This document shows positions 26,292 to 63,764 of a DNA stretch of 64,000 bases, piece by piece. Under the pieces are notes generated by a model. The model was not told the DNA's origin, did not search any database, and saw nothing but the letters and a program-made list of their open reading frames with translations. The stretch's first letter is position 1; every line of letters begins with the position of its first letter. This DNA is from a virus (taxonomy: Duplodnaviria > Heunggongvirae > Uroviricota > Caudoviricetes), in IMG/VR virus record IMGVR_UViG_3300020045_008999, positions 532,786-596,785 of that record. One strand, written 5' to 3'. Both the position numbers and the translations under genes were made by a program.

Positions 26292-26762
26292 ATGGAAGAA
26301 ATCATTAATATCATATTAAATACCCCAAATGATACTGAGTTAGGTACCGCTATTCGAAATTTATATTACGAATCACCGGAACTTTTTGATCAAAATGATA
26401 AATATCTAAGATTGTTTGCAGAGTTTGACAACTTCAAAAAACGTTCCTATAAAGAGCGTGGGGATATTGAGAACCGGGCTAAGATGGATGCAATTGATCC
26501 GTTGCTGGAATTATATGATGATTTATATTATTCGCTTAAAAACAGCCCAGTGGACAATGACGGCATACAAATAGTGTATGATAAATTGGGGAGAAAATTA
26601 TTGACGATCGGTATTGTTGAAGTGTCCACTGAAATTTATGATTCCGAAGTACATGAAGTGATTAGTGTAATTGGAACCGGGAAAGAAATTATTGATGTTG
26701 TATCAAAGGGATATAGCATTAATGGGGTTATATATCGCTATCCGAAAGTAGTTCTAGGGTAA
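26292..26762 (+). CDS. grpE: GrpE nucleotide exchange factor
   Basis: YLRLFAEFDNFKKR, HEVI, VVSKGY...RYPKVV. Confidence 0.85.
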   Translation: MEEIINIILNTPNDTELGTAIRNLYYESPELFDQNDKYLRLFAEFDNFKKRSYKERGDIENRAKMDAIDPLLELYDDLYYSLKNSPVDNDGIQIVYDKLGRKLLTIGIVEVSTEIYDSEVHEVISVIGTGKEIIDVVSKGYSINGVIYRYPKVVLG

Positions 26763-26865: not shown

Positions 26866-29241
26866 ATGAACGAACAAATAATAGATTTAAAGGAAAATAA
26901 TAAAAAAATATTAGGCAAAAGAACAAACAACACGGAAGTTCCATTAATAGACCACATGAACCAGGTAAAGGATAAGGCAGAAATGATAAAGGGTAAATTT
27001 TACTATGATAGATACAACGGGCCCAAACGTCATTATAGTGATGCTCTGTTAACCGCTGCACAATTTCATGATATAGGCAAAGCTAATCCGGTATTCCAAC
27101 TAAAAGTAATGATGACCAAACAAGACTTTGAAGATACCGAACTCATGACAGATGTAAAATATAAAAATGGTATTATACTAACTAATAAATTCAGACATAA
27201 TGAGATCGGTGCGGCATTTATGTATATTTGGACCAACGTAGAATATGAAGTAGTTAAATTGATATATTGGCACCATGGGATTTCGAAAAATAACCAGATC
27301 AATAAGACTGGGTTTAGTGAGATATTGAAAGGGGTTGATGTTGAACAAATGAAGAATATTGTCCGTGAATTAAACCCTGATATATTACTAACGGAACCCA
27401 AAGACAGTATTAACTGCCCTACCTTTTACACTACTAACATGAACATAGCTAATATCGCACTACATGAAGATGATAGTGATTTCATGACTACATTAAGTTA
27501 CTTAATAAGTGCGGACAGAATGGTATCTGGTTCATCGATTAACATTTCGAATGTAATTAATAAACAACCAGTGACTACATATACTAATCCATACAACAAT
27601 GACCGATTTGCTGATCAAGAAAGAATTGCAATGGATGCTACTCATGTAGAAGGCGGCGAAGATAAGCGAGTTACACAAATCAATGCGCCTGGTGGATTTG
27701 GCAAAACCATGGTTGGGTTATTGTGGAGTTTGAAGTCTGATAAAAGGCTAATTTGGGTTTGTCCAAGAAATTTTATTACTGAAAATATTTACGAATCGAT
27801 AAAAAAAGAACTCAAGCTTCTTAATGTCAAATACAAGGTATCGTGTATTATTGCCGGTGAAGTCACTCGATCTAATTATGAAGAACTTGGTATTGTCAAC
27901 GAACCAAACATCTATGAATCGGATATAGTTGTAACTAATATAGATTCATATTTACGCCCAAATTACGAACTAAACAATGTACATGCTTCATTGAATATTC
28001 TAAATGCTGATGTGATTTTTGACGAGTATCACGAATTGATATCTAAGAGTGGTGGAATATTTGCACTATTTTCTAAAATACTGAAAGCTAGAAATTCCTA
28101 TTCTAAACATGGCAAAACTCTTTTATTGTCCGCAACACCCATCGATTTTTCAAGTCGTTGGCATGTAAAATATGGTGGTGGTTCCTATATATTACCCTCA
28201 AACGACGGACATTATCCACCAATACATGATAAGAAATACAAAGTAACGGTGACCATTGATCAGAAGATTGTCAAAATTAATGACTTGACACTATATGTAA
28301 AAAATACAATAAAGAGTGCTCAAGAATTGGCCATTTACTATAAACATTCTAATTTATTACATCACAAGTTCCAAGAAGTCGACAAAGAAAGAATATTTGG
28401 TGAAATGATACGTTCGTATGGTGCCGGCGGCAAATATAAGAAACAACATAATTTACCTGGGTTTATAGGAACCCATGTAATACAATCATCATTAGATATA
28501 TCGTTCAAACATATGGTTGAAGACGTTATATCACCATCAGCCAGTATGCAACGTTTTTCTAGATGTGATCGAGCAGGGGATTACGATAGTGTTCAATTCG
28601 GACAATCTGAGGTGACATTCAATTTAAACACGGATAAAAGTAGTGAGACAATTTCTGAAATATTATATGAATCAGATTTAACAATTCTTTGGCACGGATA
28701 TTTACGAATACATCATCAGCCTCAAATGACAATTGCCGAACTTTATACGCTATACCGTGATTTTAATAGAGTTTATAGTTCTTCAATTACTAATTGGGTA
28801 AGTGACTGCTATAATGATTCTAATAATAATCTATTAGCGATATACCCAATAAAGTATTTCAAGCAGAAAGCCAACAAAAATAAAAATAGCGTTCCAAATA
28901 ATATAATGCGGTCAGATAGTAACCATGTAGCATACACATGTCTTCTAGATGATGGATCTGGAAATTATATGCTCCCATTATCACAAGGTTTGTATAAAAA
29001 TAGTTACCCACAAACTTTTAAAGAGCCAGGTGATTGGAGGGAATGTATGGTTAATTTTATAGAAGAACAAAATAAATTACCAAACTCAATATTTGATTTT
29101 AGTAAATATAAAAATAAAGGAAATAAGGTTCTAGTATGGACTGATGATAATATGCGAAAAAGCTTTAGAAATTACGACACACCATATTTATCGGTAAATG
29201 ATGTATATTCGCCAATATATGGTGTAATACGTAATAAATAA
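26866..29241 (+). CDS. cas3: CRISPR-associated nuclease/helicase Cas3 (HD + SF2)
   Basis: LIDH, FHDIGKANPVFQ, RHNE, WHHG, SAD; APGGFGKT, DEYH, SATP, NTI, SLDISF, QRFSRCDR; adjacent to Cascade genes and array. Confidence 0.93.
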   Translation: MNEQIIDLKENNKKILGKRTNNTEVPLIDHMNQVKDKAEMIKGKFYYDRYNGPKRHYSDALLTAAQFHDIGKANPVFQLKVMMTKQDFEDTELMTDVKYKNGIILTNKFRHNEIGAAFMYIWTNVEYEVVKLIYWHHGISKNNQINKTGFSEILKGVDVEQMKNIVRELNPDILLTEPKDSINCPTFYTTNMNIANIALHEDDSDFMTTLSYLISADRMVSGSSINISNVINKQPVTTYTNPYNNDRFADQERIAMDATHVEGGEDKRVTQINAPGGFGKTMVGLLWSLKSDKRLIWVCPRNFITENIYESIKKELKLLNVKYKVSCIIAGEVTRSNYEELGIVNEPNIYESDIVVTNIDSYLRPNYELNNVHASLNILNADVIFDEYHELISKSGGIFALFSKILKARNSYSKHGKTLLLSATPIDFSSRWHVKYGGGSYILPSNDGHYPPIHDKKYKVTVTIDQKIVKINDLTLYVKNTIKSAQELAIYYKHSNLLHHKFQEVDKERIFGEMIRSYGAGGKYKKQHNLPGFIGTHVIQSSLDISFKHMVEDVISPSASMQRFSRCDRAGDYDSVQFGQSEVTFNLNTDKSSETISEILYESDLTILWHGYLRIHHQPQMTIAELYTLYRDFNRVYSSSITNWVSDCYNDSNNNLLAIYPIKYFKQKANKNKNSVPNNIMRSDSNHVAYTCLLDDGSGNYMLPLSQGLYKNSYPQTFKEPGDWRECMVNFIEEQNKLPNSIFDFSKYKNKGNKVLVWTDDNMRKSFRNYDTPYLSVNDVYSPIYGVIRNK

Positions 29242-29261
29242 TTTTTTATTAGCCAGTATGT

Positions 29262-29282
29262 CAAATATAACTATTATATTTG
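29262..29282 (+). promoter_or_regulatory. Palindromic TAnnTTTG promoter upstream of cas7
   Basis: CAAATATAA-CTA-TTATATTTG. Confidence 0.55.
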
Positions 29283-29313
29283 CTTCATTAATAAATAATC
29301 TTAGTAAAACATT

Positions 29314-30405
29314 ATGAAAAACAACGTACAGAACATTCTTTTTAGAGTGAAATTGAAGGGAAATGGTATTGTGAATTTTGATTCGGATAATCAAAAATGG
29401 GATTTAGTTAAACATGGTATAAAACATTTGGTTCCCACCGATGATAATAATCAAATGGTGAGTAATACGAAATATGCCAAGAAACGTTTTTTCAAAGATG
29501 CTGATGGCAATCCATCTTACAAAATCGCGATATCGTCAACGTGTTTAGGTAAGGCTATATATGCAGACCACCTTGAAATTACTACGCCGATGATCGGAGT
29601 GAATGACATTTTATTTATGGGATGTGTGGCTAGTCCCGCGTCATTATTGCGTGGCTATGTACAAACTCGTGGTAAGAATTCTGTATCATATAATCGAAAG
29701 GGCACAGTGACACTAAGTGATGCAGTCCAGTCAAACGGTGCTATATCTTCAGTAGAAACTATGACCAAAGCCGGATCCAGAAGTGCAACTTCATTATATA
29801 ACCAAGAAAATGTAAGTGATATAGAGTATGAAGCAACTGGTATAATGAATTTACAAGAAATGCAATTCTATTCGGTGGATACATTACATTCCCGAGCTAT
29901 GTTTTCTGATGATTTATTTCCAATGTTTTCCAAATTAATTAAGTCGCGTATGCCGGAATTTGATTCAGAAATAGGGTATTATACTTTGAAGACTTGCGAA
30001 GCTAAGATACCAGAAAAGGGATTTGTCATTAACGATGAATGTATGTTACATTTGGTTAAGTTTTATTTCTCTAATTTGATCAGAGCTAAAATAACAAGAG
30101 CTCATGGACATGCTGCTGTACACGAAGTTGAATATAAACTGGTAACTGATACGGTTTATGGTGGCATGAATGATACAAGTGATTGGATAAAAATCAAATC
30201 ACAATCATGCATTGATTCAATGTCTTTTGGTACAAAAGAATGGTACCAAGAATATAGTGATTCTGAAAGTGATTCAATTAGAAGTCTAATTGATGTAGTT
30301 GAAGTAACTACTAAAGAAAATAAAAAGAAAAAAAACGAAGAAGCATCTGCTAGAAAGGCAGCGGCCGCTGAGACACGTCTTAAAAATAAAGATGATGGGA
30401 AATAA
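29314..30405 (+). CDS. cas7: Cas7 backbone subunit, type I-Fv (I-F2)-like
   Basis: FRVKLKGNGIVN, ISSTC, ASLLRGYV, AGSRSATS, EMQFYSVD, GFVIND are colinear with recalled Cas7fv motifs (FKIKALGHGVVN, ISQNC, GLIRGYV, AGARDSTS, QLQFISLD, GILLND). Confidence 0.85.
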   Translation: MKNNVQNILFRVKLKGNGIVNFDSDNQKWDLVKHGIKHLVPTDDNNQMVSNTKYAKKRFFKDADGNPSYKIAISSTCLGKAIYADHLEITTPMIGVNDILFMGCVASPASLLRGYVQTRGKNSVSYNRKGTVTLSDAVQSNGAISSVETMTKAGSRSATSLYNQENVSDIEYEATGIMNLQEMQFYSVDTLHSRAMFSDDLFPMFSKLIKSRMPEFDSEIGYYTLKTCEAKIPEKGFVINDECMLHLVKFYFSNLIRAKITRAHGHAAVHEVEYKLVTDTVYGGMNDTSDWIKIKSQSCIDSMSFGTKEWYQEYSDSESDSIRSLIDVVEVTTKENKKKKNEEASARKAAAAETRLKNKDDGK

Positions 30406-31405
30406 TTTAGGATACATAAAATTAGTCTTTGATTCTGCAAAATTATTTAGGGTTGCAAAAGACGAGAAAATTGGATCACTTTCACCCAAAGCTGGTTTAT
30501 TAAAATCACAAGAATCAATTGATGGAAAATCTCTTACCAAGCGTAAGAGATTTGGCTTTGTGAATCCAATTACTTATTATCAAATCAGTAATGTATTATG
30601 TGCACTTACTGGTAATCGTCCAGTTAATTCAGTCAGGTTTACTAGATTCGAGCACAATAACGACTATATCGATTGGGCAAAACAGTGTTACTTAAAGTAC
30701 ACAAATTTACTCACATATGATGAAGATGGGCTTATTTTGCCAACTCGAAGTGTTGTCACAACTTCTAAGGCTATGGATAATTCTAATGTAACCCAAGTGT
30801 TATTAACCTGGAGTGATATTAAATATTTCGTAGGCGAATATATCAAAGATGCATTAAGCATGTCCGCTTTCGACCAGTTGCTATCCCACTATAATGTAAA
30901 CATGTGCGATGCCACTTTTGAAGATTTTTTAGAAGTGGTAGCTAAAAGTGGTGATACTAAAACATTATATACTTGGCTGTATGGTTTGAATAAAAATGGA
31001 ACCCCTTCAAAAACACTGCTGAATGATATTACTTATTATTACATTTCTAAGGGACATATTGATAAGTCGCTTCCGGGATTTAATATAAAAGGACATGTAT
31101 TTGGTAATTACACAATTCCTATGACTCAGAATATGCCTAGTTCTGGGAATATGCGAGCTACCGATGATTGGCGAATTGGTGCCAGAATAAAAAGTGGCAT
31201 CAATCACCATGAATTATTTTGTGGTGAAATTTTGGTACCAATTAGAAAAGTGGGGGATCTTCAAAAATTTCTAGTCGGGTCCGGAGTTTGTACTATATTG
31301 GATGGGGGTGTAGTGACCATACATGGCGAGGCTAATCCGGAAATTGACCACCTATCAGAATTTGAATTAGTAGGAAATATATCAGACGAACGTCTAATCA
31401 ATTAA
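30392..31405 (+). CDS. cas5: Large Cas5, type I-Fv (I-F2)-like
   Basis: 337 aa; N-terminal beta strand, TYYQISNVLCALTG helix, helical insertion, C-terminal G-rich loop GSGVCTILDGG; position between cas7 and cas6. Confidence 0.7.
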   Translation: MMGNNLGYIKLVFDSAKLFRVAKDEKIGSLSPKAGLLKSQESIDGKSLTKRKRFGFVNPITYYQISNVLCALTGNRPVNSVRFTRFEHNNDYIDWAKQCYLKYTNLLTYDEDGLILPTRSVVTTSKAMDNSNVTQVLLTWSDIKYFVGEYIKDALSMSAFDQLLSHYNVNMCDATFEDFLEVVAKSGDTKTLYTWLYGLNKNGTPSKTLLNDITYYYISKGHIDKSLPGFNIKGHVFGNYTIPMTQNMPSSGNMRATDDWRIGARIKSGINHHELFCGEILVPIRKVGDLQKFLVGSGVCTILDGGVVTIHGEANPEIDHLSEFELVGNISDERLIN

Positions 31406-31417
31406 AAAATATCATAT

Positions 31418-32182
31418 ATGCGTATTAAAATATCATTTACTGAAAACAATAAACCAGTCCCAGTAGACAATCAGTATCATTTAAATTCCTATATACATAA
31501 ATGTTTAGGAAATAACAATAAATACCACAATGCCAAAAGTGATTACTCAATTTCACATCTATACGGTGGTACTCTAAATAAGTCCAATAACACATTAAAT
31601 TTTGAAAAGGGTGGCTATATTATAATATCATCGATGGATAAAGAGTTTATGGGTGCTTTATTTGCGGGAATATATGCTAATCAACTATTTGGATTTGGCA
31701 TGCAGTTCAAATCAGTTGATAATGTAGCCGCTGAATATTTCTATGCCGGATGGAATCACTTTGCAACACTATCACCATTTATTATTAAAGAATATCAGGA
31801 TAAAAAAAACTATACATTCTTAACGCTAGATGATCCTAATTTTGAATACAAAGTGAAGCAATATTTAATTCGCAAAATTCGCAAAATCAATCCTAGATTG
31901 GATTTGTCTGATTTTGATATAAATATCAAAACTCACGAAAAGCACAAAATTAAAAAAATATTGATAAAGAATGTTATCAATCATGCGAATCAATGTCAGA
32001 TTTCAATTTATACAAATCCTAAAGTTGCTAAACTATTGTACCACATAGGAATAGGACAATCAACCGGTTCTGGTCTTGGTACAATATATCCTACATCTAA
32101 ACATAGCTTTTATCGTGAGGTGAAAATACATTCAGGTAATGTTACTAAAGTAGATAGGATCGAAAAAATGCAAATGTATTAA
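31418..32182 (+). CDS. cas6: Cas6 crRNA endoribonuclease (I-B/III-like, not Cas6f)
   Basis: MRIKISF, YSIS, TLSP, C-terminal GIGQSTGSGLG (GhGxxxxxGhG). Confidence 0.9.
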   Translation: MRIKISFTENNKPVPVDNQYHLNSYIHKCLGNNNKYHNAKSDYSISHLYGGTLNKSNNTLNFEKGGYIIISSMDKEFMGALFAGIYANQLFGFGMQFKSVDNVAAEYFYAGWNHFATLSPFIIKEYQDKKNYTFLTLDDPNFEYKVKQYLIRKIRKINPRLDLSDFDINIKTHEKHKIKKILIKNVINHANQCQISIYTNPKVAKLLYHIGIGQSTGSGLGTIYPTSKHSFYREVKIHSGNVTKVDRIEKMQMY

Positions 32183-32274
32183 TAATAGTGTGTATAAAAT
32201 GTGTCGAAATCAGAATATTAACACCCAAAAATCCAGTACAAACTACTACACTTCAATAAGTTATACTGTGGTAT
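32183..32274 (+). promoter_or_regulatory. CRISPR leader, array 1
   Basis: AT-rich; ACAAACTACTACA (32238-32250) is shared with the leader of the second array. Confidence 0.6.
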
Positions 32275-32864
32275 AGTAGTACTTATAGTAATCCGTAAGG
32301 GAATCACAACCATTCAGAAGGAGCAAATCCTAAATTATTAAGTAGTACTTATAGTAATCCGTAAGGGAATCACAACAACGGTATAACTCTTATAATCACC
32401 GCGGTCAGTAGTACTTATAGTAATCCGTAAGGGAATCACAACACGGAAAAGACGAAAGTTTAATATATAGGAGTAGTACTTATAGTAATCCGTAAGGGAA
32501 TCACAACCGGATCTAGGTTTATTAAAATTTTAGTTAAGTAGTACTTATAGTAATCCGTAAGGGAATCACAACACTTATTAATTCCTGCGACTGGCGAGTA
32601 ACAGTAGTACTTATAGTAATCCGTAAGGGAATCACAACTAGTAATCGAAAAAACGGTTAGTGATTACAGTAGTACTTATAGTAATCCGTAAGGGAATCAC
32701 AACATGATGAGAAGAAATAAAAATGTGGATCAAAGTAGTACTTATAGTAATCCGTAAGGGAATCACAACACTCTATAGATTATTTAATAACTCTAAGAAA
32801 GTAGTACTTATAGTAATCCGTAAGGGAAATATAATAGAATTAATTGGGATCTAATTTTATGAAT

Positions 32865-32961
32865 GGGAATTATATCGGTCCGTGTGGAAAACACATCATA
32901 ATATGTTTAAGTTCTTTGAAATCTTTGGTAGTTATAGTGATCTGAAAGGGAATCACAACAA
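32865..32961 (+). repeat. 97-bp block duplicated within array (copy 1)
   Basis: 2 mismatches versus 33715-33811. Confidence 0.9.
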
Positions 32962-33714
32962 AGTGTAAAAATTGGTTTCCATATACTATGGTAGTACTTA
33001 TAGCAATCCGTAAGGGAATCACGACCACGCTATAGATTATGCTGGTAGAAATACAGTTAATAATTATATCAATCCGTAAGGGAATCACAACAGGCGTTCT
33101 CATGGAGGCGGCTTTGAATAAAGTAGTACTTATGACAATCCGTAAGGGAATCACAACAAGTGACACTTCAATGCCAAAAAAAGTAATAGTAGTACTTATG
33201 ACAATCCGAAAGGGAATCACAACATAAACGGATTACACACCACACGGCTAGAAAGTAGTACTTATGACAATCCGAAAGGGAATCACAACTAGTTATGGAC
33301 GTAGAGAGAGATCCCTTTAAGTAGTACTTATGACAATCTGAGAGGGAATCACAACACATAAATAATTTTACCACAATCCGAAAGGGAATCACAACGTGAT
33401 AAACGCAATTTGGTCGTTTGGGTCCAGTAGTACTTATGACAATCCGAAAGGGAATCACAATGTCGGATGTCATGTTAATACATCTCAGATGAGTAGTACT
33501 TATGACAACCCGAAAGGGAATCACAACTATAGTGGCCTCTAGCTCCACTTTTGTTACAGTAGTACTTATAGCAATCCGTAAGGGAATCACAACGGAAATC
33601 TTCTTGAGGCACAACAGGAAAATAGTAGTACTTATAGCAATCCGTAAGGGAATCACAACAGGACCGATAGCGTGGTGTATAATAGATTTGAGTAGTACTT
33701 ATGTTAATCCATAA

Positions 33715-33811
33715 GGGAATTATATCGGTCCGTGTGAAAAACACATCATAATATGTTTAAGTTCTTTGAAATCTTTGGTAGTTAAAGTGATCTGAAAGGG
33801 AATCACAACAA
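33715..33811 (+). repeat. 97-bp block duplicated within array (copy 2)
   Basis: 2 mismatches versus 32865-32961. Confidence 0.9.
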
Positions 33812-34238
33812 GCGTAAGCAACACCAATATTTTAAAGAGTTGCCACTTATAGCAATCCGTAAGGGAATCACAACAGTGCTGCGGGTAATTATCCAAATAA
33901 AATTAGTAGTACTTATAGTAATCCGAAAGGGAATCAGAACAAACTGTATTGGGGTAGTCATTTTATTTTTGGTAGTACTTATAGCATTCCGTAAGGGAAT
34001 CACAACATCATTGAATTTGAGCTAGGTGTTCAAGCAGTTGGTACTTATAGCAATCCGAAAGGGAATCACAACAATCAGTGCATCAAAAATTGAATAATCA
34101 TTAGTAGTACTTATAGCAATCCGAAAAGGAATCACAACAAATGAACAGAATTAAATTAGAATTAGAAAAGTAGTATTTATAGTAATCCGTAAGGGAATCA
34201 TCGCAAATAACCTGGTGAAAATTTAAAGAAAAATAATT

Positions 34239-54416: not shown

Positions 54417-57400
54417 ATGGACAAAACAATTGTACACTTGGCTGATTTCCAAGTAGAAGCTAGAAATTCGGGAATAGGGAACAGGTATGACGAATATAAA
54501 AACGGTCTTTCTGATGCACTAGAATCTATAAAAAATCAATCACCTGATATTGTTATAATCACCGGTGATTTATATCAATTTGCAGATACCACTGCTGCTG
54601 AAAGAAAATTACTAACATGGTTTCTGAAAGAGTTGGCTAAAATATCCAATGTGGTAATCACTAATGGTAATCACGATTTAAAGCAACGCAACAACCAACT
54701 TATTATTTCGGATAAAAATCAAACACAACCCGATGATATAGAAAGTGTTTTAGATGCACTAAGCCTACCAAATATAAAATATTTAAAAAGAACTGGTTTT
54801 TACAATGTATTCGACCAGGATTTTGCCGTATGGGGGCATTATGAAAAATTCAACAAAGTTGAAGACGATTTACTACCTTATTCACCATGGGATCTTCCAA
54901 ATGCGGATGATTATATTAGTAAAGCAGTAGATGGTACGTTAATCGAATTGTACCACGATCCAATTTCAAACTGTAAGGGATTTTCCGGCAAACCAGAGCT
55001 ACACTTTGTTGATTACAAAATGGAATTGTCTATGTTCAAATCTAAATTAGTTTTAGCCGGTGATATACATGCACCGGATATAATTGAGTATGCTAAAGGT
55101 TGCTATTTTACCTATTGTTCTTCAACAATAATGCGTAATCACGGGGAGGGTAACTATTATAAAAATTCAACACTCATACAAGATGGTAATAATAAACACG
55201 GTTACAATTCAATAAAATATGTAAATGGTGTTCCAGAGATTACATTTGTAGAGATACACCCAAGAGTTGGAAGACATACCATTTATTTAGACGCTGACTT
55301 TAATTATAACAATATTTCAGAATTGACGATAACCCAGCACAATTATAATATAATTAGATTTGTTGTTGAGGATAATGTCAATGACTTTTTCACAAACCAA
55401 GATCTTATCTTTGCTCATTTAAAAACGAAATACAATTGTTTAATAGAAGATCCTAGGTTTGATAAAAACATTGGAATTGAAATGGATGATGAACATACTG
55501 TTGATAATATAGAAAGTATTGTCACTGAGGAAAAAATCATGGAACTTTCTGAAATTTATATAAACAAAGTAATTGATAAAACCACCACAATTGCCGCTGA
55601 TGATCGCCCCGCTGCAAAGCGCATGTTACTAGATTTATTCAATAATGAATTTCTTAAAAGAGCGGATGTTGCAAATACCATGAAATACATCCAGGTAAAT
55701 CGCTTAAATATTTCCAATGCCTTAACATTTGGTGATGATGTTGAAATAATATTTAATGAGAGTGGGATTACTAGGATAACTGGGTCTAATGCGGTTGGTA
55801 AAACGAAAATATTCACAATACTTGGTTATATGTTTACTGATAAGTTATACGCGGACCAAAAAGTATCACAATATAAGAATAATCGATTAGACTTGTTTAA
55901 TTATAATAGGCCAAACGATGAAGTATTTACTGAAATGGATTTTTCTATAAATAAATTACCGTATAAATTATCCAAACGGGTTACTCGTGGGTGGAAACGT
56001 GGTAAAAATATGTGGAATGATAAAGACTGGAGAGATCATATCAATGCTACGCCGGATTTGGAAATTATTTTAACCACACCAGAGGGTGTTGTTACGGACT
56101 ATAATGAAGTGATGGCATTTATGACCGATTTAATCACATTTGAAGAATTTTATACACATCTTTTCGTCAATCAGCGTTCATTGGAAACTTTATTAAAAAT
56201 GAATCCTGATATATTGATTGGTGAAATTTTAAAAATAATAGGACTTAACTTCTTTGATTCTTTAAACGATTCATTTGATGAAGTGCGTGATACTATTACC
56301 AATACGTTGACTAAACCACAAGGTACAATGGACTCACTTTTCGAAGAAATAAATACTAATTTGGCTTTGATTGAATCTTTAACAGATGAAAAGTCCCTAT
56401 TGATGGTACATAATTTATCATTGGATAGTTTACAAACTATTGCAGCGGACCAAAGTGAAAATATAACTAAACGAATTGGTTCGGTTCGAGAAGAAAAGGT
56501 AGTTCAAGCAGAAATAGATACTGCCAATGAAAAAATAAAAGAACTGAATGGCCATGTTGATCGCATTAAATTGATTTTAGATGCAGACCGATTGATTTAT
56601 GATGGGATTGATGTGTTGTCATTGAAAAGTGACAACATAATCAATAATGCTACGATCTCTCAAAATAATAAAGAAATTGCTACAAACGAAGCAAGTAAAA
56701 ATCAACTTGATGCAGTTGTTGCTAATCTGAAATCAGAAATAAACAACTTTAAAAATGAGCATGAGAATAAGAAAAATGGTGATAAAAACATCATTGACAT
56801 TGAAATCAATAAACAAAAAGAAAAACAAGCGGGACTTTCTTCTCGTGCTGCTGAAATTAAAGAAATTATTTCACTACACAAACAAAAACTCAAAGATGAA
56901 AAACAGTTAAAAATTGACAAGCTTTTAGTTGCTATTGATCGTGAAAAAATAGAATTGGGTAACTTAGAAAGTGCGTTAGTTAAAAATGAAAACATTATAG
57001 CGACGAACGAGATTATTATCACAAATTCTAATCTAAGTATTGAGACTTTAATACAGGGGAAAACATGCCCGACATGTTTACGTGAAAAAGATGAAACTAA
57101 ATTAGATGGAATCAATGAATCTATCGCAAAACATGAACGTGACATTTTACATGCTAATGCAGTAATTGACGACACTAAAACTTTAATAGATGTACTTGGT
57201 ATTGAAATTGAAACTGTTTCATCACATGTAATTAGCGGTGAAGCAAATATACTAAAAATGCGTTCCGAAGAAATCGAATATTCTTTAAAAGATAATTCGG
57301 AATTATTCGAAGAGGGTAAAATACTTAAACTGGATCATGGTTTGGCAGAAGAAATTATCTTAAAATTAATTGATGATAAATCGGTAATTGATTTAGATAA

Positions 57401-58355
57401 TTCATATTTAACCAGCGACTATATAACTAAGAGAGAAGACCGAATTGCTAATATAAAAGAGGAAGAAGCCGCTTATGATGCATCAATCGTATTATTAGAA
57501 AAAAGTATAGATACCATTCGTGATTTGATTAAAGCATGTGAGGACAAGATCGATTTAAAGTCGACTAAAGAAATTGCTATAATCAGAATGGAATCTGAGA
57601 TTAACAACCATACTAAAGATATTTCAATTATTGATGATAAGTTAGGCCAATTAAATACTGAGATCGTTGCATCTATAGATGCAAATACATTGTTTGATGA
57701 GTTAGCAGCTATAAAAACTTCGATTTACGATCGTAAGATAGAGATTACTGAAAACGAAAATGACATAAATGAGAAAACTATTGCCATAAAAATGGCCAGT
57801 CTTAAAATCGAAGAATGTGAGACCAATATTACCAATTTAAAGCAGTATAATTTAACTACAGCTGTTATTAAACAATACAAGACCATGTTGGGTAAGACCG
57901 GATTACAGAAATATATTTTCGGTAAAATTGTTGATATACTTAACACGAAATTAAGTGATTTATTACAAGATGTGGATTTCCGTCTATTCTTTGACAAAGA
58001 ATCATTAGATTTGCGAAAATATAGTTTGCGTAAAAATGTAATTAGTGGGGTTCAAATGACCTCTGGTATGGAAACTACTATTTTAGGTTTAAGTTTACTG
58101 AATTCACTCAAAATGTTAAACCAAATTAGAAAGTTTAATTTTCTAATGATTGATGAAGTTTCCGGACAAATGAATAATGGTAAAAATTTAACATACTCAG
58201 CAAGTGACTACCAAGATTTATTGGTTCAGTTGTTGCATAAAATAAGAGAAACTAGTAACATTTATATAGTGGATCACGTGCTTGAATTTTTAGGTGAGAC
58301 AAGTGTTCTAGAAGTTCAGTATACCGAACATGGATCTATAGTAACTGTTCAATAA
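54417..58355 (+). CDS. Fused SbcD-SbcC (Mre11-Rad50, T4 gp47-gp46-like) recombination nuclease/ATPase
   Basis: HLAD, GDL, GNHD, GDIH; Walker A GSNAVGKT, coiled coil with CPTC hook, SGME signature, IDE, DH. Confidence 0.9.
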   Translation: MDKTIVHLADFQVEARNSGIGNRYDEYKNGLSDALESIKNQSPDIVIITGDLYQFADTTAAERKLLTWFLKELAKISNVVITNGNHDLKQRNNQLIISDKNQTQPDDIESVLDALSLPNIKYLKRTGFYNVFDQDFAVWGHYEKFNKVEDDLLPYSPWDLPNADDYISKAVDGTLIELYHDPISNCKGFSGKPELHFVDYKMELSMFKSKLVLAGDIHAPDIIEYAKGCYFTYCSSTIMRNHGEGNYYKNSTLIQDGNNKHGYNSIKYVNGVPEITFVEIHPRVGRHTIYLDADFNYNNISELTITQHNYNIIRFVVEDNVNDFFTNQDLIFAHLKTKYNCLIEDPRFDKNIGIEMDDEHTVDNIESIVTEEKIMELSEIYINKVIDKTTTIAADDRPAAKRMLLDLFNNEFLKRADVANTMKYIQVNRLNISNALTFGDDVEIIFNESGITRITGSNAVGKTKIFTILGYMFTDKLYADQKVSQYKNNRLDLFNYNRPNDEVFTEMDFSINKLPYKLSKRVTRGWKRGKNMWNDKDWRDHINATPDLEIILTTPEGVVTDYNEVMAFMTDLITFEEFYTHLFVNQRSLETLLKMNPDILIGEILKIIGLNFFDSLNDSFDEVRDTITNTLTKPQGTMDSLFEEINTNLALIESLTDEKSLLMVHNLSLDSLQTIAADQSENITKRIGSVREEKVVQAEIDTANEKIKELNGHVDRIKLILDADRLIYDGIDVLSLKSDNIINNATISQNNKEIATNEASKNQLDAVVANLKSEINNFKNEHENKKNGDKNIIDIEINKQKEKQAGLSSRAAEIKEIISLHKQKLKDEKQLKIDKLLVAIDREKIELGNLESALVKNENIIATNEIIITNSNLSIETLIQGKTCPTCLREKDETKLDGINESIAKHERDILHANAVIDDTKTLIDVLGIEIETVSSHVISGEANILKMRSEEIEYSLKDNSELFEEGKILKLDHGLAEEIILKLIDDKSVIDLDNSYLTSDYITKREDRIANIKEEEAAYDASIVLLEKSIDTIRDLIKACEDKIDLKSTKEIAIIRMESEINNHTKDISIIDDKLGQLNTEIVASIDANTLFDELAAIKTSIYDRKIEITENENDINEKTIAIKMASLKIEECETNITNLKQYNLTTAVIKQYKTMLGKTGLQKYIFGKIVDILNTKLSDLLQDVDFRLFFDKESLDLRKYSLRKNVISGVQMTSGMETTILGLSLLNSLKMLNQIRKFNFLMIDEVSGQMNNGKNLTYSASDYQDLLVQLLHKIRETSNIYIVDHVLEFLGETSVLEVQYTEHGSIVTVQ

Positions 58356-62806: not shown

Positions 62807-63764
62807 GTTGGTACTTATAGTAATCCGTAAGGGAATCACAACGTGAGATTTGAATGCTTTTTTCCCATTGAGGTTGGTACTTATAGTAATCCGTAAGGGA
62901 ATCACAACGTATCTGATAAGCTACAGCTTTTAAATAATGTTGGTACTTATAGTAATCCGTAAGGGAATCACAACGGCACCAGTATCCATTAACCTAGAGG
63001 TAAAGTTGGTACTTATAGTAATCCGTAAGGGAATCACAACAATAGCCCAATTAGTAATAGAGCGAGAATTGTTGGTACTTATAGTAATCCGTAAGGGAAT
63101 CATAACTACATAAATAGGTATTCCCAAATTAGTCAGGTTAGTACTTATAGTAATCCGTAAGGGAATCACAACTGCGTGGTGGTTAACTTCTGAAATGTTA
63201 TCGTTAGTACTTATAGTAATCCGTAAGGGAATCACAACGGTGAGTGAATTTTAAAACATAAAGGTTTGTTAGTACTTATAGTAATCCGTAAGGGAATCAC
63301 AACAACCCATAATTAATTATAATGTAGTTGAGGTTAGTACTTATAGTAATCCGTAAGGGAATCACAACAAGAGTGGAATTATCTCAATTTTACGGTATGT
63401 TGGTACTTATAGTAATCCGTAGGGGAATCACAACAAACGAGATAAAAATGGATACAAAGTTTTTGTTGGTACTTATAGTAATCCGTAAGGGAATCACAAC
63501 GGTCTTAAACTAAAATATCCAAATAACTGGGTTGGTACTTATAGTAATCCGTAAGGGAATCACAACAGAAAATGCTGGATCAAAAAATAACGCATCGTTG
63601 GTACTTATAGTAATCCGCAAGGGAATCACAACCGAAATAGATAACATTATTAGATTTTCAAAGTTAGTACTTATATTAATCCGAAAGGGAATCACAACGA
63701 ATTGGAAGAGTTGGAAAACGATTACCAAGTTAATACTTATATTAATCCGAAAGGGAACTGTCAT
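62807..63764 (+). CRISPR. CRISPR array 2: 15 repeats (GTT(G/A)GTACTTATAGTAATCCGTAAGGGAATCACAAC), 14 spacers of 29-30 nt
   Basis: 66-nt period; degenerate last repeat; no adjacent cas genes seen; leader motif ACAAACTACTACA at 62748-62760. Confidence 0.97.

What the first reader, a model, noticed from the sequence alone, without database searches (positions are those of the whole stretch)
26866..34204. Phage-encoded chimeric minimal type I CRISPR-Cas: I-Fv-like Cas7/Cas5 with stand-alone Cas3 and a non-I-F Cas6
Seen: only four genes (cas3, cas7, large cas5, cas6), then the array, with no intervening ORF that could be cas8, cas11, cas1, cas2 or cas4. Established: the Cas8-less Cascade is type I-Fv/I-F2 (Shewanella putrefaciens), which uses a Cas2-Cas3 fusion, Cas6f, 28-nt repeats and 32-nt spacers. 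Inference from recalled motifs: Cas7 (363 aa) and Cas5 (337 aa) follow Cas7fv/Cas5fv, but Cas3 starts directly with the HD domain, Cas6 looks I-B/III-like, and the repeat is unrelated to I-F. This combination fits no subtype I know. It would be a very compact three-gene Cascade plus nuclease (about 5.3 kb).
Basis: partly seen in the sequence, partly recalled or inferred. Interest (0 to 1): 0.93.

Follow-up and report, generated by a model that had tools for sequence, protein, structure and literature searches.

The report
Huge-phage Cas8-less type I CRISPR variant
A 597-kb phage carries a four-gene type I CRISPR-Cas module (Cas3, Cas7, Cas5-like, Cas6) related to the minimal I-F2 subtype, but with no Cas1, no Cas2 domain, and a different Cas6 and repeat; the same module recurs in many huge phages, so it is a real and compact variant rather than a one-off.

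Summary
Window 26866-32182 holds four co-directional genes: cas3 (791 aa), cas7 (363 aa), a 337-aa protein of no sequence family, and cas6 (254 aa). An array follows at 32275-34204. A second array with the same repeat lies at 62807-63764.

Cas7 is a clear Cas7fv (I-F2) homologue. Cas3's only solved relative is the I-F2 Cas3, but it starts at the HD domain, where the canonical Cas2-3 has about 118 extra N-terminal residues. The 337-aa protein has a Cas5 fold with a helical insertion; its best structural matches are Cas5fv, yet no sequence similarity is detectable. A complex model places it on Cas7. Cas6 is Cas6b-like. Repeats are 36 nt and unstructured, spacers about 30 nt, against 27/28 and 32 nt in I-F2.

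No cas1, cas2, cas4 or csy1 was found in the 98%-complete phage genome. About 30 loci, on huge-phage contigs of 310-390 kb, share only these four genes plus an array ending in the same repeat half. Some relatives carry a Cas6e-like Cas6 instead.

Best reading: an I-F2-derived, adaptation-less interference module of huge phages with an exchanged Cas6/repeat pair. It is a new variant of a known kind. Targets and PAM are unknown, because no protospacer was found. The same stretch was also noted once more by this scan, in an overlapping window.

The parts
26866..29241 (+). cas3: stand-alone HD nuclease plus SF2 helicase plus C-terminal domain, 791 aa, of I-F2 lineage but without a Cas2 domain
   Evidence: Pfam Cas3_HD, DEAD and Cas3-like_C_2. 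PADLOC Cas3fv 8e-57, next best Cas3b 5e-28. The only PDB sequence hit is 9G44_A, the I-F2 Cas3, at 3e-33. Residue 26 aligns to residue 119 of a canonical Cas2-3, E 1e-41. HD residues H30, H68-D69, H111, H136-H137, Walker A and DExH are invariant in 19 distinct phage homologues.
29314..30405 (+). cas7: Cas7fv-like backbone subunit, 363 aa, with a C-terminal Lys/Glu-rich helix (about residues 316-361) that the 315-aa Cas7fv lacks
   Evidence: NF040577 Cas7fv 2e-14, below its cut-off. PADLOC Cas7fv 2e-12. Precomputed Pfam PF28157 Cas7fv-like. Profile A2 against 5O6U_C gives 4e-29. The model has pLDDT 85, and Foldseek matches 5O6U_D at 1.4e-16, TMt 0.70.
30392..31405 (+). cas5-like subunit, 337 aa: RRM/Cas5 core with a helical insertion (about residues 140-219); no sequence family
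   Evidence: No Pfam, NCBIfam or PADLOC hit. 167 representative homologues. The model has pLDDT 81. The best PDB matches are Cas5fv: 9G44_B and 5O6U_F at Foldseek probability 0.96 and 0.95, VIA Z 7.3 and 6.4, followed by Cas5 of I-B CAST and I-E. The complex model with Cas7 scores ipSAE 0.88 against a best control of 0.00. A homologue lies next to Cas7 in every related locus.
31418..32182 (+). cas6: Cas6b-like pre-crRNA endoribonuclease, 254 aa (not Cas6f)
   Evidence: TIGR01877 cas_cas6 81.8 bits, above the 58.65 cut-off. PADLOC Cas6b 7e-41 over the full profile. Pfam Cas_Cas6_C. More than 223 clusters of 50-64% identical homologues, on contigs up to 711 kb.
32183..32274 (+). leader of array 1; contains the 13-nt motif ACAAACTACTACA (32238-32250), which is also upstream of array 2
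   Evidence: Read directly from the sequence.
32275..32835 (+). array 1, sub-array a: 9 repeats of 36 nt and 8 spacers; the last repeat is degenerate
32924..33726 (+). array 1, sub-array b: 13 repeats, including one truncated copy at 33368-33395. Repeat variants are TATGACAATCCGAAAGG and TATAGCAATCCGTAAGG. It is preceded by a leader-like unit that starts at 32865.
33774..34204 (+). array 1, sub-array c: 7 repeats, preceded by the second copy of the 97-nt leader-like unit (33715-33811)
62807..63764 (+). array 2: 15 repeats of the same family (GTTGG/GTTAG start) and 14 spacers; the terminal repeat is degenerate; no cas gene is adjacent

Best explanation
This is an interference-only type I CRISPR-Cas module of a huge phage, derived from the Cas8-less subtype I-F2 (I-Fv).

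Proposed mechanism:
1. The arrays are transcribed from the left-hand leaders on the + strand.
2. The Cas6b-like nuclease cuts the largely unstructured 36-nt repeats. By analogy with Cas6 systems this should leave an 8-nt 5' handle, AUCACAAC.
3. The crRNA, with its roughly 30-nt guide, is capped by the Cas5-like protein at the 5' handle, coated by about five or six Cas7 copies, and keeps Cas6 at the 3' end.
4. As in I-F2, there is no large or small subunit. The helical insertion of Cas5 would read the PAM and open the duplex.
5. The Cas7 backbone would recruit the stand-alone Cas3, which unwinds and degrades the target DNA.

Relative to canonical I-F2, the lineage has lost cas1 and the Cas2 domain of Cas2-3. 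It has also replaced Cas6f and its 28-nt hairpin repeat with a Cas6b-type enzyme and a matching 36-nt repeat; other members carry a Cas6e-type enzyme.

What is shown: gene content, the homologies, conservation of the catalytic residues and recurrence of the module. What is inferred: assembly, the crRNA ends, the PAM reader, DNA degradation, and a role in competition with other mobile elements or against the host.
For: Homologies:
- Cas7 is homologous to Cas7fv.
- Cas3 is closest to the I-F2 Cas3 and lacks only the N-terminal Cas2 part. A Cas2-truncated I-F2 Cas3 still docks on Cascade in the solved complex 9G44, where Cas7 recruits Cas3 and Cas5 reads the PAM (PMC12956352).
- The ORF3 model's top five structural matches are all Cas5 proteins, with Cas5fv first.

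Complex model: Cas7 with ORF3 scores ipSAE 0.88, best control 0.00. That mark was reached by 58 of 80 solved complexes and 2 of 110 mismatched pairs. The runs agree in at least 56% of contacts, and the partner's pLDDT is at least 65. A like complex (5O6U) is solved, so the pass may reflect likeness.

Activity: the Cas3 HD and helicase motifs are invariant in 19 homologues.

Same order as I-F2: the gene order cas3-cas7-cas5-cas6 matches a canonical I-F2 plasmid locus.

Recurrence:
- The module recurs in about 30 loci, on IMG/VR contigs of 310-390 kb, two of them rated 100% complete and lacking cas1.
- Only these four genes are shared between the neighbourhoods.
- The three related arrays examined keep the period of 66 nt and the 3' repeat half ATCCGTAAGGGAATCACAAC; a fourth, on a MAG contig, keeps the period with a one-base variant, CCGCAAGGGAATCACAAC.

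Absences: no cas1, cas2, cas4 or csy1 in the 98%-complete genome.
Against: - There is no functional evidence. No protospacer was found for any spacer, so the targets and PAM are unknown.
- No RNA data could be obtained.
- The Cas5 assignment rests on moderate fold scores (Z 7.3, TM 0.28 because of domain orientation) and a predicted interface. Profile comparison with a canonical Cas5fv shows no similarity (probability 0.2%).
- Cas8 proteins are very diverse, so a distant one elsewhere in the 597-kb genome cannot be excluded by the few profiles tried.
- Array 1 carries many repeat variants and a truncated repeat. These could reflect decay or recombination rather than active use.
- It is not explained how spacers are acquired without Cas1-Cas2.
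Confidence: 0.75

Rival explanations
1. It is simply a member of subtype I-F2 that has lost its adaptation genes. The differences in Cas6 and repeat are within normal subtype variation, so nothing new is present.
For: Cas3, Cas7 and probably Cas5 are of I-F2 lineage, and the gene order is identical to canonical I-F2. Loss of cas1/cas2 is the rule for phage-borne CRISPR (PMC7162821). The Cas7 already falls in Pfam PF28157, 'Cas7fv-like'.
Against: Four features of canonical I-F2 were tested and not met: the Cas2-3 fusion, Cas6f, the 27/28-nt repeat with 32-nt spacers, and cas1f. Cas7 scores 53.5 bits against the NCBIfam equivalog cut-off of 200. Cas5 has no detectable sequence similarity. In the Cas7 tree the phage clade sits on a long branch away from a canonical Cas7fv. 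The 2025 classification text lists I-F1 to I-F4 and one I-F1/I-F2 intermediate, but no such variant.
Confidence: 0.15
2. The module is incomplete on its own and depends on proteins supplied in trans. These could be a host or phage large subunit for PAM reading, or host Cas1-Cas2 for spacer uptake, so it is not a self-sufficient three-gene Cascade.
For: There is no adaptation module in three near-complete phage genomes. Forty-four repeats hold about 39 different spacers, which must have been acquired somehow. Phage arrays that borrow host Cas proteins are described (PMC7162821). The phage also has a second, Cas12f-like system.
Against: No array with this repeat half was found in 401 sampled genomes of the phylum of the one MAG that carries the module, other than on the module's own contig. 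Only the four genes co-occur across loci. I-F2 shows that a Cas8-less Cascade can work alone (PMC12956352).
Confidence: 0.25
3. The locus is a decaying or non-nucleolytic remnant, for example one that only binds or silences targets, or that soaks up host crRNA machinery.
For: Array 1 has heterogeneous and truncated repeats and duplicated leader pieces. No target was found.
Against: All four ORFs are intact. The HD and helicase catalytic residues are invariant across 19 diverged homologues. The module is kept in many phage lineages whose Cas7 proteins are 31-47% identical to the window's. Array 2 has near-perfect repeats.
Confidence: 0.07

Closest known systems
Subtype I-F2 (I-Fv) of Shewanella putrefaciens CN-32 (PDB 5O6U, 5O7H, 9G44), and a canonical plasmid locus in Acinetobacter sp. 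ANC 7924 (L042)
   Same: No Cas8 and no Cas11. The Cas7 is homologous. Cas5 has a helical insertion, a similar fold and even the same length of 337 aa. The Cas3 HD-helicase is of the same lineage. The gene order is cas3-cas7-cas5-cas6, followed by the array.
   Different: No cas1. Cas3 lacks the roughly 118-residue Cas2 part. Cas6 is Cas6b-like (254 aa) rather than Cas6f (about 190 aa). The repeat is 36 nt and unstructured with spacers of about 30 nt, against a 27/28-nt repeat with 32-nt spacers. Cas7 carries an extra C-terminal helix. Cas5 has no detectable sequence similarity. The carrier is a huge phage rather than a plasmid or genomic island.
Vibrio phage ICP1 type I-F system (PMC10161043)
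   Same: A phage-encoded, compact type I-F-related system used by the phage itself.
   Different: ICP1 keeps Csy1 (Cas8f), Cas1 and a Cas2/3 fusion, and uses Cas6f-type repeats. The present module has none of these.
Adaptation-less CRISPR-Cas loci of huge phages, e.g. the type I-C variant with a helicase in place of Cas3 (PMC7162821)
   Same: Huge-phage carrier, missing cas1/cas2/cas4, and co-occurrence with a small type V effector in the same genome.
   Different: A different subtype lineage (I-F2-like, not I-C). Here a complete Cas3 and a Cas6 are present.
Cas6b / generic Cas6 (TIGR01877) of type I-B and type III systems
   Same: The Cas6 matches these profiles over their full length, and the repeat is long and weakly structured, as in many such systems.
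   Different: It works beside I-F2-type Cas7, Cas5 and Cas3, not beside Cas8b/Cas7b/Cas5b or a Cas10 complex.

Membership tests
Type I CRISPR-Cas | Cas3 with an HD nuclease and an SF2 helicase as the signature gene | tested here: met
   Pfam, NCBIfam and PADLOC hits; catalytic motifs conserved.
Type I CRISPR-Cas | Cas7, Cas5 and Cas6 genes next to a CRISPR array | tested here: met
Subtype I-F2 (I-Fv) | Absence of the large (Cas8) and small (Cas11) subunit genes | tested here: met
   There is no room between the genes. The flanking ORFs have no Cas hits. No Csy1 is found in the genome. Only four genes are conserved across 29 loci. A very divergent Cas8 elsewhere is not excluded.
Subtype I-F2 (I-Fv) | Cas7fv-family backbone protein | tested here: met
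   Profile against 5O6U_C, 4e-29. Foldseek 1.4e-16, TM 0.70. It is below the NCBIfam equivalog cut-off, 53.5 against 200 bits.
Subtype I-F2 (I-Fv) | Cas5fv: a Cas5 with an alpha-helical (AH) domain that reads the PAM | tested here: inconclusive
   The best fold matches are Cas5fv (Z 7.3 and 6.4; probability 0.95-0.96), and a helical insertion is modelled at residues 140-219. HHalign against a canonical Cas5fv gives probability 0.2%. PAM reading is not testable here.
Subtype I-F2 (I-Fv) | Cas2-Cas3 fusion protein | tested here: not met
   Phage Cas3 starts at the HD domain; residue 26 aligns to residue 119 of a canonical Cas2-3. There is no Cas2 profile match in the genome.
Subtype I-F2 (I-Fv) | Cas6f (Csy4) with a 27/28-nt repeat and 32-nt spacers | tested here: not met
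   The Cas6 matches Cas6b/TIGR01877, not Cas6f. The repeat is 36 nt, folds at -2.7 kcal/mol with z near 0, and the spacers are 29-31 nt.
Subtype I-F2 (I-Fv) | cas1f adaptation gene in the locus | tested here: not met
   There is no Cas1 in the phage's own genome, nor in two related virus records rated 100% complete.
Subtype I-F2 (I-Fv) | GG PAM and Cas7-mediated Cas3 recruitment | not testable with these tools
   No protospacer was found.
Subtype I-B | Cas8b large subunit with Cas7b and Cas5b | tested here: not met
   No Cas8b, Cas7b or Cas5b match in the cassette or its flanks. The Cas7 is best matched by Cas7fv/Cas7f.
Subtype I-B | Cas6b-type endoribonuclease | tested here: met
   PADLOC Cas6b 7e-41 over profile positions 1-218 of 218.
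Type IV | No Cas3; a Csf1-type large subunit and a DinG or other helicase | tested here: not met
   A full Cas3 with an HD domain is present; the DinG model scores only 4.5e-4 on the helicase core.

The most novel reading that the evidence does not exclude
The module may be a formally undescribed, phage-specific variant of I-F, a fifth I-F variant. Its features would be a Cas8/Cas11-less Cascade that has exchanged its crRNA-processing enzyme and repeat at least twice (Cas6b-type and Cas6e-type); a shorter backbone built on 30-nt guides; a basic C-terminal Cas7 helix that takes over part of the small-subunit or Cas3-docking role; and a naturally Cas2-free Cas3. At 5.3 kb it would be among the smallest self-sufficient type I interference modules, and a natural experiment in swapping Cas6 under one Cascade.
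Probability: 0.4. Interest if true: 0.7.

Novelty: new variant of a known kind. Interest (0 to 1): 0.55.

Why it matters
I-F2 is studied as the smallest type I system and is being developed for genome editing. A natural lineage that keeps its Cas7/Cas5/Cas3 core but works with a different Cas6, a different repeat, shorter guides and a Cas2-free Cas3 would do three things. It would show which parts of the minimal Cascade are exchangeable. It would give a second, independent set of proteins for structural comparison of Cas8-independent PAM reading and Cas3 recruitment. It would add a widespread class 1 weapon to what huge phages are known to carry. It also raises the question of how phage arrays with dozens of spacers are filled without Cas1-Cas2.

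Tried and rejected
- Rfam scan of array 1: no match at E up to 1.
- ESM Atlas look-up of ORF3: only noise. The feature hits are to unrelated eukaryotic DUFs, and the Atlas's own model has pLDDT 0.31.
- Profile A1 against PDB sequences: no Cas hit. PADLOC on 61 family members: no consistent family.
- HHalign of A1 against a canonical Cas5fv: no similarity.
- Protospacer searches, all negative:
  - the phage's own genome and all fetched loci;
  - GenBank phages by blastn, chance-level hits only;
  - four spacers in IMG/VR and two in JGI metagenomes, with every sixth base free.
- Cas7 by tblastn against 50,697 GenBank phage records: no match.
- Repeat 3' half in 401 sampled genomes of one candidate host phylum: found only in the module's own contig, in one non-CRISPR 213-nt-period repeat, and as a single hit.
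- Public sequencing runs: none was listed and no RNA holder was listed.
- Terminase_6C Pfam profile in the phage genome: no match. Viral status therefore rests on the IMG/VR and CheckV classification and on PHROG hits in the window.
- The 2022 Cell survey of virus-encoded CRISPR-Cas systems is not held and could not be read. It may already list this module.
- From memory, the GTTG...CAAC 36-nt repeat with 30-nt spacers resembles Bacteroidota arrays such as those of type VI-B. A text search for the repeat end found only unrelated primers, so this remains an untested lead.
- The close relative of ORF3 (P0025) lies on a 1.7-kb contig, too short to compare arrays.


Full report
**What is there.** The window is the last 64 kb of a 596,785-bp IMG/VR virus record, which CheckV rates 98% complete. 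Its GC content is 31.9%. Several window ORFs match phage protein families, among them phrog_35725 at 1.5e-276, an SSB and a helicase.

At 26866-32182 four genes lie head to tail on the + strand, separated by a 72-nt gap, a 14-nt overlap and a 12-nt gap. After a 92-nt leader comes a CRISPR array.

The repeat is 36 nt. It reads AGTAGTACTTATAGTAATCCGTAAGGGAATCACAAC in array 1 and begins GTTGG or GTTAG in array 2. Spacers are 29-31 nt and the period is 65-66 nt.

Array 1 is really three arrays in tandem: 32275-32835, 32924-33726 and 33774-34204. Each ends in a degenerate repeat. They are joined by two 98%-identical copies of a 97-nt unit, and one repeat is truncated. Degenerate repeats at the right-hand ends, together with the cas orientation, put the leaders on the left and transcription on the + strand.

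A second array of 15 near-perfect repeats lies 28.6 kb downstream at 62807-63764. Both leaders share the 13-nt motif ACAAACTACTACA.

**The proteins.**

*Cas3 (791 aa).* It has Cas3_HD, DEAD and Cas3 C-terminal domains.
- Its best defence-profile match is Cas3fv at 8e-57, well ahead of Cas3b at 5e-28.
- Its only relative among solved structures is the I-F2 Cas3 of Shewanella putrefaciens, 9G44_A, at 3e-33.
- Against the 982-aa Cas2-3 of a canonical I-F2 plasmid locus, phage residue 26 aligns to residue 119 (E 1e-41). The Cas2 domain and linker are therefore missing, and nothing else is.
- The upstream gene is grpE, and no Cas2 profile match exists in the genome.
- The HD residues, Walker A, DExH and motifs III and VI are invariant in 19 distinct phage homologues.

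*Cas7 (363 aa).* It scores below the NCBIfam Cas7fv cut-off (53.5 against 200 bits).
- A profile of 21 homologues hits Cas7fv 5O6U_C at 4e-29.
- The AlphaFold model (pLDDT 85) matches 5O6U_D at Foldseek E 1.4e-16 and TM 0.70. That is ten orders of magnitude better than any other Cas7.
- It carries an extra Lys/Glu-rich C-terminal helix, conserved in length in the family.

*The 337-aa protein.* It matches no Pfam, NCBIfam or PADLOC family.
- It has 167 representative relatives of 270-350 aa.
- Its model (pLDDT 81) is an RRM-type core interrupted by a five-helix insertion.
- The two best Foldseek matches are the Cas5 chains of the I-F2 complexes, at probability 0.96 and 0.95.
- On re-alignment the top five are all Cas5 proteins, led by Cas5fv at Z 7.3 and 6.4.
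- These are moderate scores, and a profile comparison with a canonical Cas5fv gives no signal. The assignment as the Cas5 subunit is therefore structural and positional.
- A complex model with Cas7 gave ipSAE 0.88 against a best control of 0.00. That mark was reached by 58 of 80 solved complexes and 2 of 110 mismatched pairs. The runs agree in at least 56% of contacts, and the partner's pLDDT is at least 65. Because the Cas5fv-Cas7fv complex is solved, this may partly reflect likeness.

*Cas6 (254 aa).* It passes the TIGR01877 cut-off and matches a Cas6b profile end to end at 7e-41. It is not Cas6f.

*The repeat RNA.* It is essentially unstructured: a 3-bp hairpin at -2.7 kcal/mol, no better than shuffled sequence.

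**Is anything missing or hidden?** There is no cas1, cas2, cas4 or csy1 profile match in the genome. The ten flanking ORFs have no Cas match.

The strongest argument is comparative. About 30 loci from IMG/VR, JGI, ENA and Logan carry the same module. Some are on virus contigs of 310-390 kb, two of which are rated 100% complete and also lack cas1. Cas6 homologues occur on contigs up to 711 kb.

Two gene orders occur: cas3-cas7-cas5-cas6-array and cas7-cas5-cas6-array-cas3. Between the window's neighbourhood of about 8 kb on each side and 29 such loci, only the four cas genes are shared. The three related arrays examined keep the 66-nt period and the 3' repeat half ATCCGTAAGGGAATCACAAC, while the 5' half varies. 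A fourth, on a Bacteroidetes MAG contig, keeps the period and carries a one-base variant of that half.

A sub-group (L023, L025, L026) keeps Cas3, Cas7 and the Cas5-like protein but has a Cas6e-like Cas6. In a Cas7 tree this sub-group forms a supported subclade. The whole phage group sits on a long branch away from a canonical Cas7fv.

**How it most likely works.** The core is I-F2. In that subtype Cas5 alone reads the PAM through its helical domain, six Cas7 copies hold the guide, and the Cas7 backbone recruits Cas3 with no Cas8 or Cas11. A Cas2-truncated Cas3 docks normally (PMC12956352).

The phage module looks like the same machine with three changes:
- the adaptation parts (cas1 and the Cas2 domain) have been removed;
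- the processing enzyme and its repeat have been exchanged;
- the guide is 30 nt, which would fit five to six Cas7 copies.

The last eight repeat bases, AUCACAAC, have the AU...AAC pattern of typical Cas6 5' handles; this point rests on general knowledge, not on a test here. The intact and conserved Cas3 active sites argue for DNA degradation rather than mere binding.

What the system targets is unknown. There is no self-match, no match in the fetched relatives and none in GenBank phages. None of the six spacers tried has an exact-core match in IMG/VR or JGI metagenomes. How spacers enter the arrays is also open. No array with this repeat half turned up in 401 sampled genomes of one candidate host phylum. 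The mosaic of array 1 suggests recombination between arrays.

**Comparison with the literature.** Canonical I-F2 has cas1, cas2-3, cas7fv, cas5fv, cas6f, 27/28-nt repeats and 32-nt spacers (the plasmid example is). Four of these features were tested here and not met, so I do not file the module as an ordinary I-F2 member. It works like one and descends from one.

The 2025 classification update names I-F1 to I-F4 and mentions one I-F1/I-F2 intermediate, but no phage variant with another Cas6. The 2020 huge-phage survey describes adaptation-less loci and a I-C variant, not this one. No GenBank phage record encodes this Cas7. The 2022 survey of virus-encoded systems could not be read. The Cas7 is already covered by a Pfam family called Cas7fv-like. 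Prior notice somewhere is therefore quite possible.

**Verdict.** This is a real, well-conserved and probably active module. It is a new variant of a known kind: an I-F2-derived, phage-borne module with an exchanged Cas6 and repeat. It is interesting to CRISPR specialists and as a compact tool candidate, but it is not a new principle. Interest 0.55.

Noticed in passing
outside the window: genome G000:C1 123,549-125,916 (locus L027:7550-9917): The same phage carries a second CRISPR system. A 551-aa Cas12f/Cas14b-like protein (PADLOC 9e-19; Pfam OrfB_IS605 plus Cas12f1-like TNB) is followed by an array of 7 repeats of a different 36-nt repeat (GTTGGGGATGACYACAATTTGAAAGGTATATCCACC) with spacers of about 30 nt. 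It also has no cas1/cas2.
   Followed up: partly
window 32865-32961 and 33715-33811: Two 98%-identical copies of a 97-nt unit span the tail of a degenerate terminal repeat, 48 nt of leader-like sequence and a divergent first repeat. This indicates that array 1 arose by tandem joining or duplication of arrays.
   Followed up: partly
L023:10047-10565, L025:11520-12512, L026: Related Cas8-less modules carry a Cas6e-like Cas6 instead of the Cas6b-like one. In L025 the Cas6e domain sits at residues 166-324 of a 330-aa ORF that overlaps the Cas5-like ORF (L025:11096-11992), so the gene calls at that junction need checking.
   Followed up: partly
window 29314-30405, Cas7 residues about 316-361: A long Lys/Glu-rich C-terminal helix is absent from the 315-aa Cas7fv and is conserved in length across the phage family. 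It could help hold the displaced strand or dock Cas3.
   Followed up: no
window 26292-26762 and 54417-58355: A phage-encoded GrpE homologue (Pfam 5e-17) lies directly upstream of cas3. The window also holds a 1312-aa metallophosphoesterase/SbcC-like protein (phrog_35725, 1.5e-276).
   Followed up: no
L024 (Bacteroidetes MAG), L025 (Terrimicrobiaceae MAG), L026 (Methanosarcinales MAG): The only three hits in the species-representative genome collection are MAG contigs from three unrelated phyla. L023 (a viral contig) and L026 have nearly identical Cas7. This suggests phage contigs binned into MAGs rather than cellular carriers.
   Followed up: no
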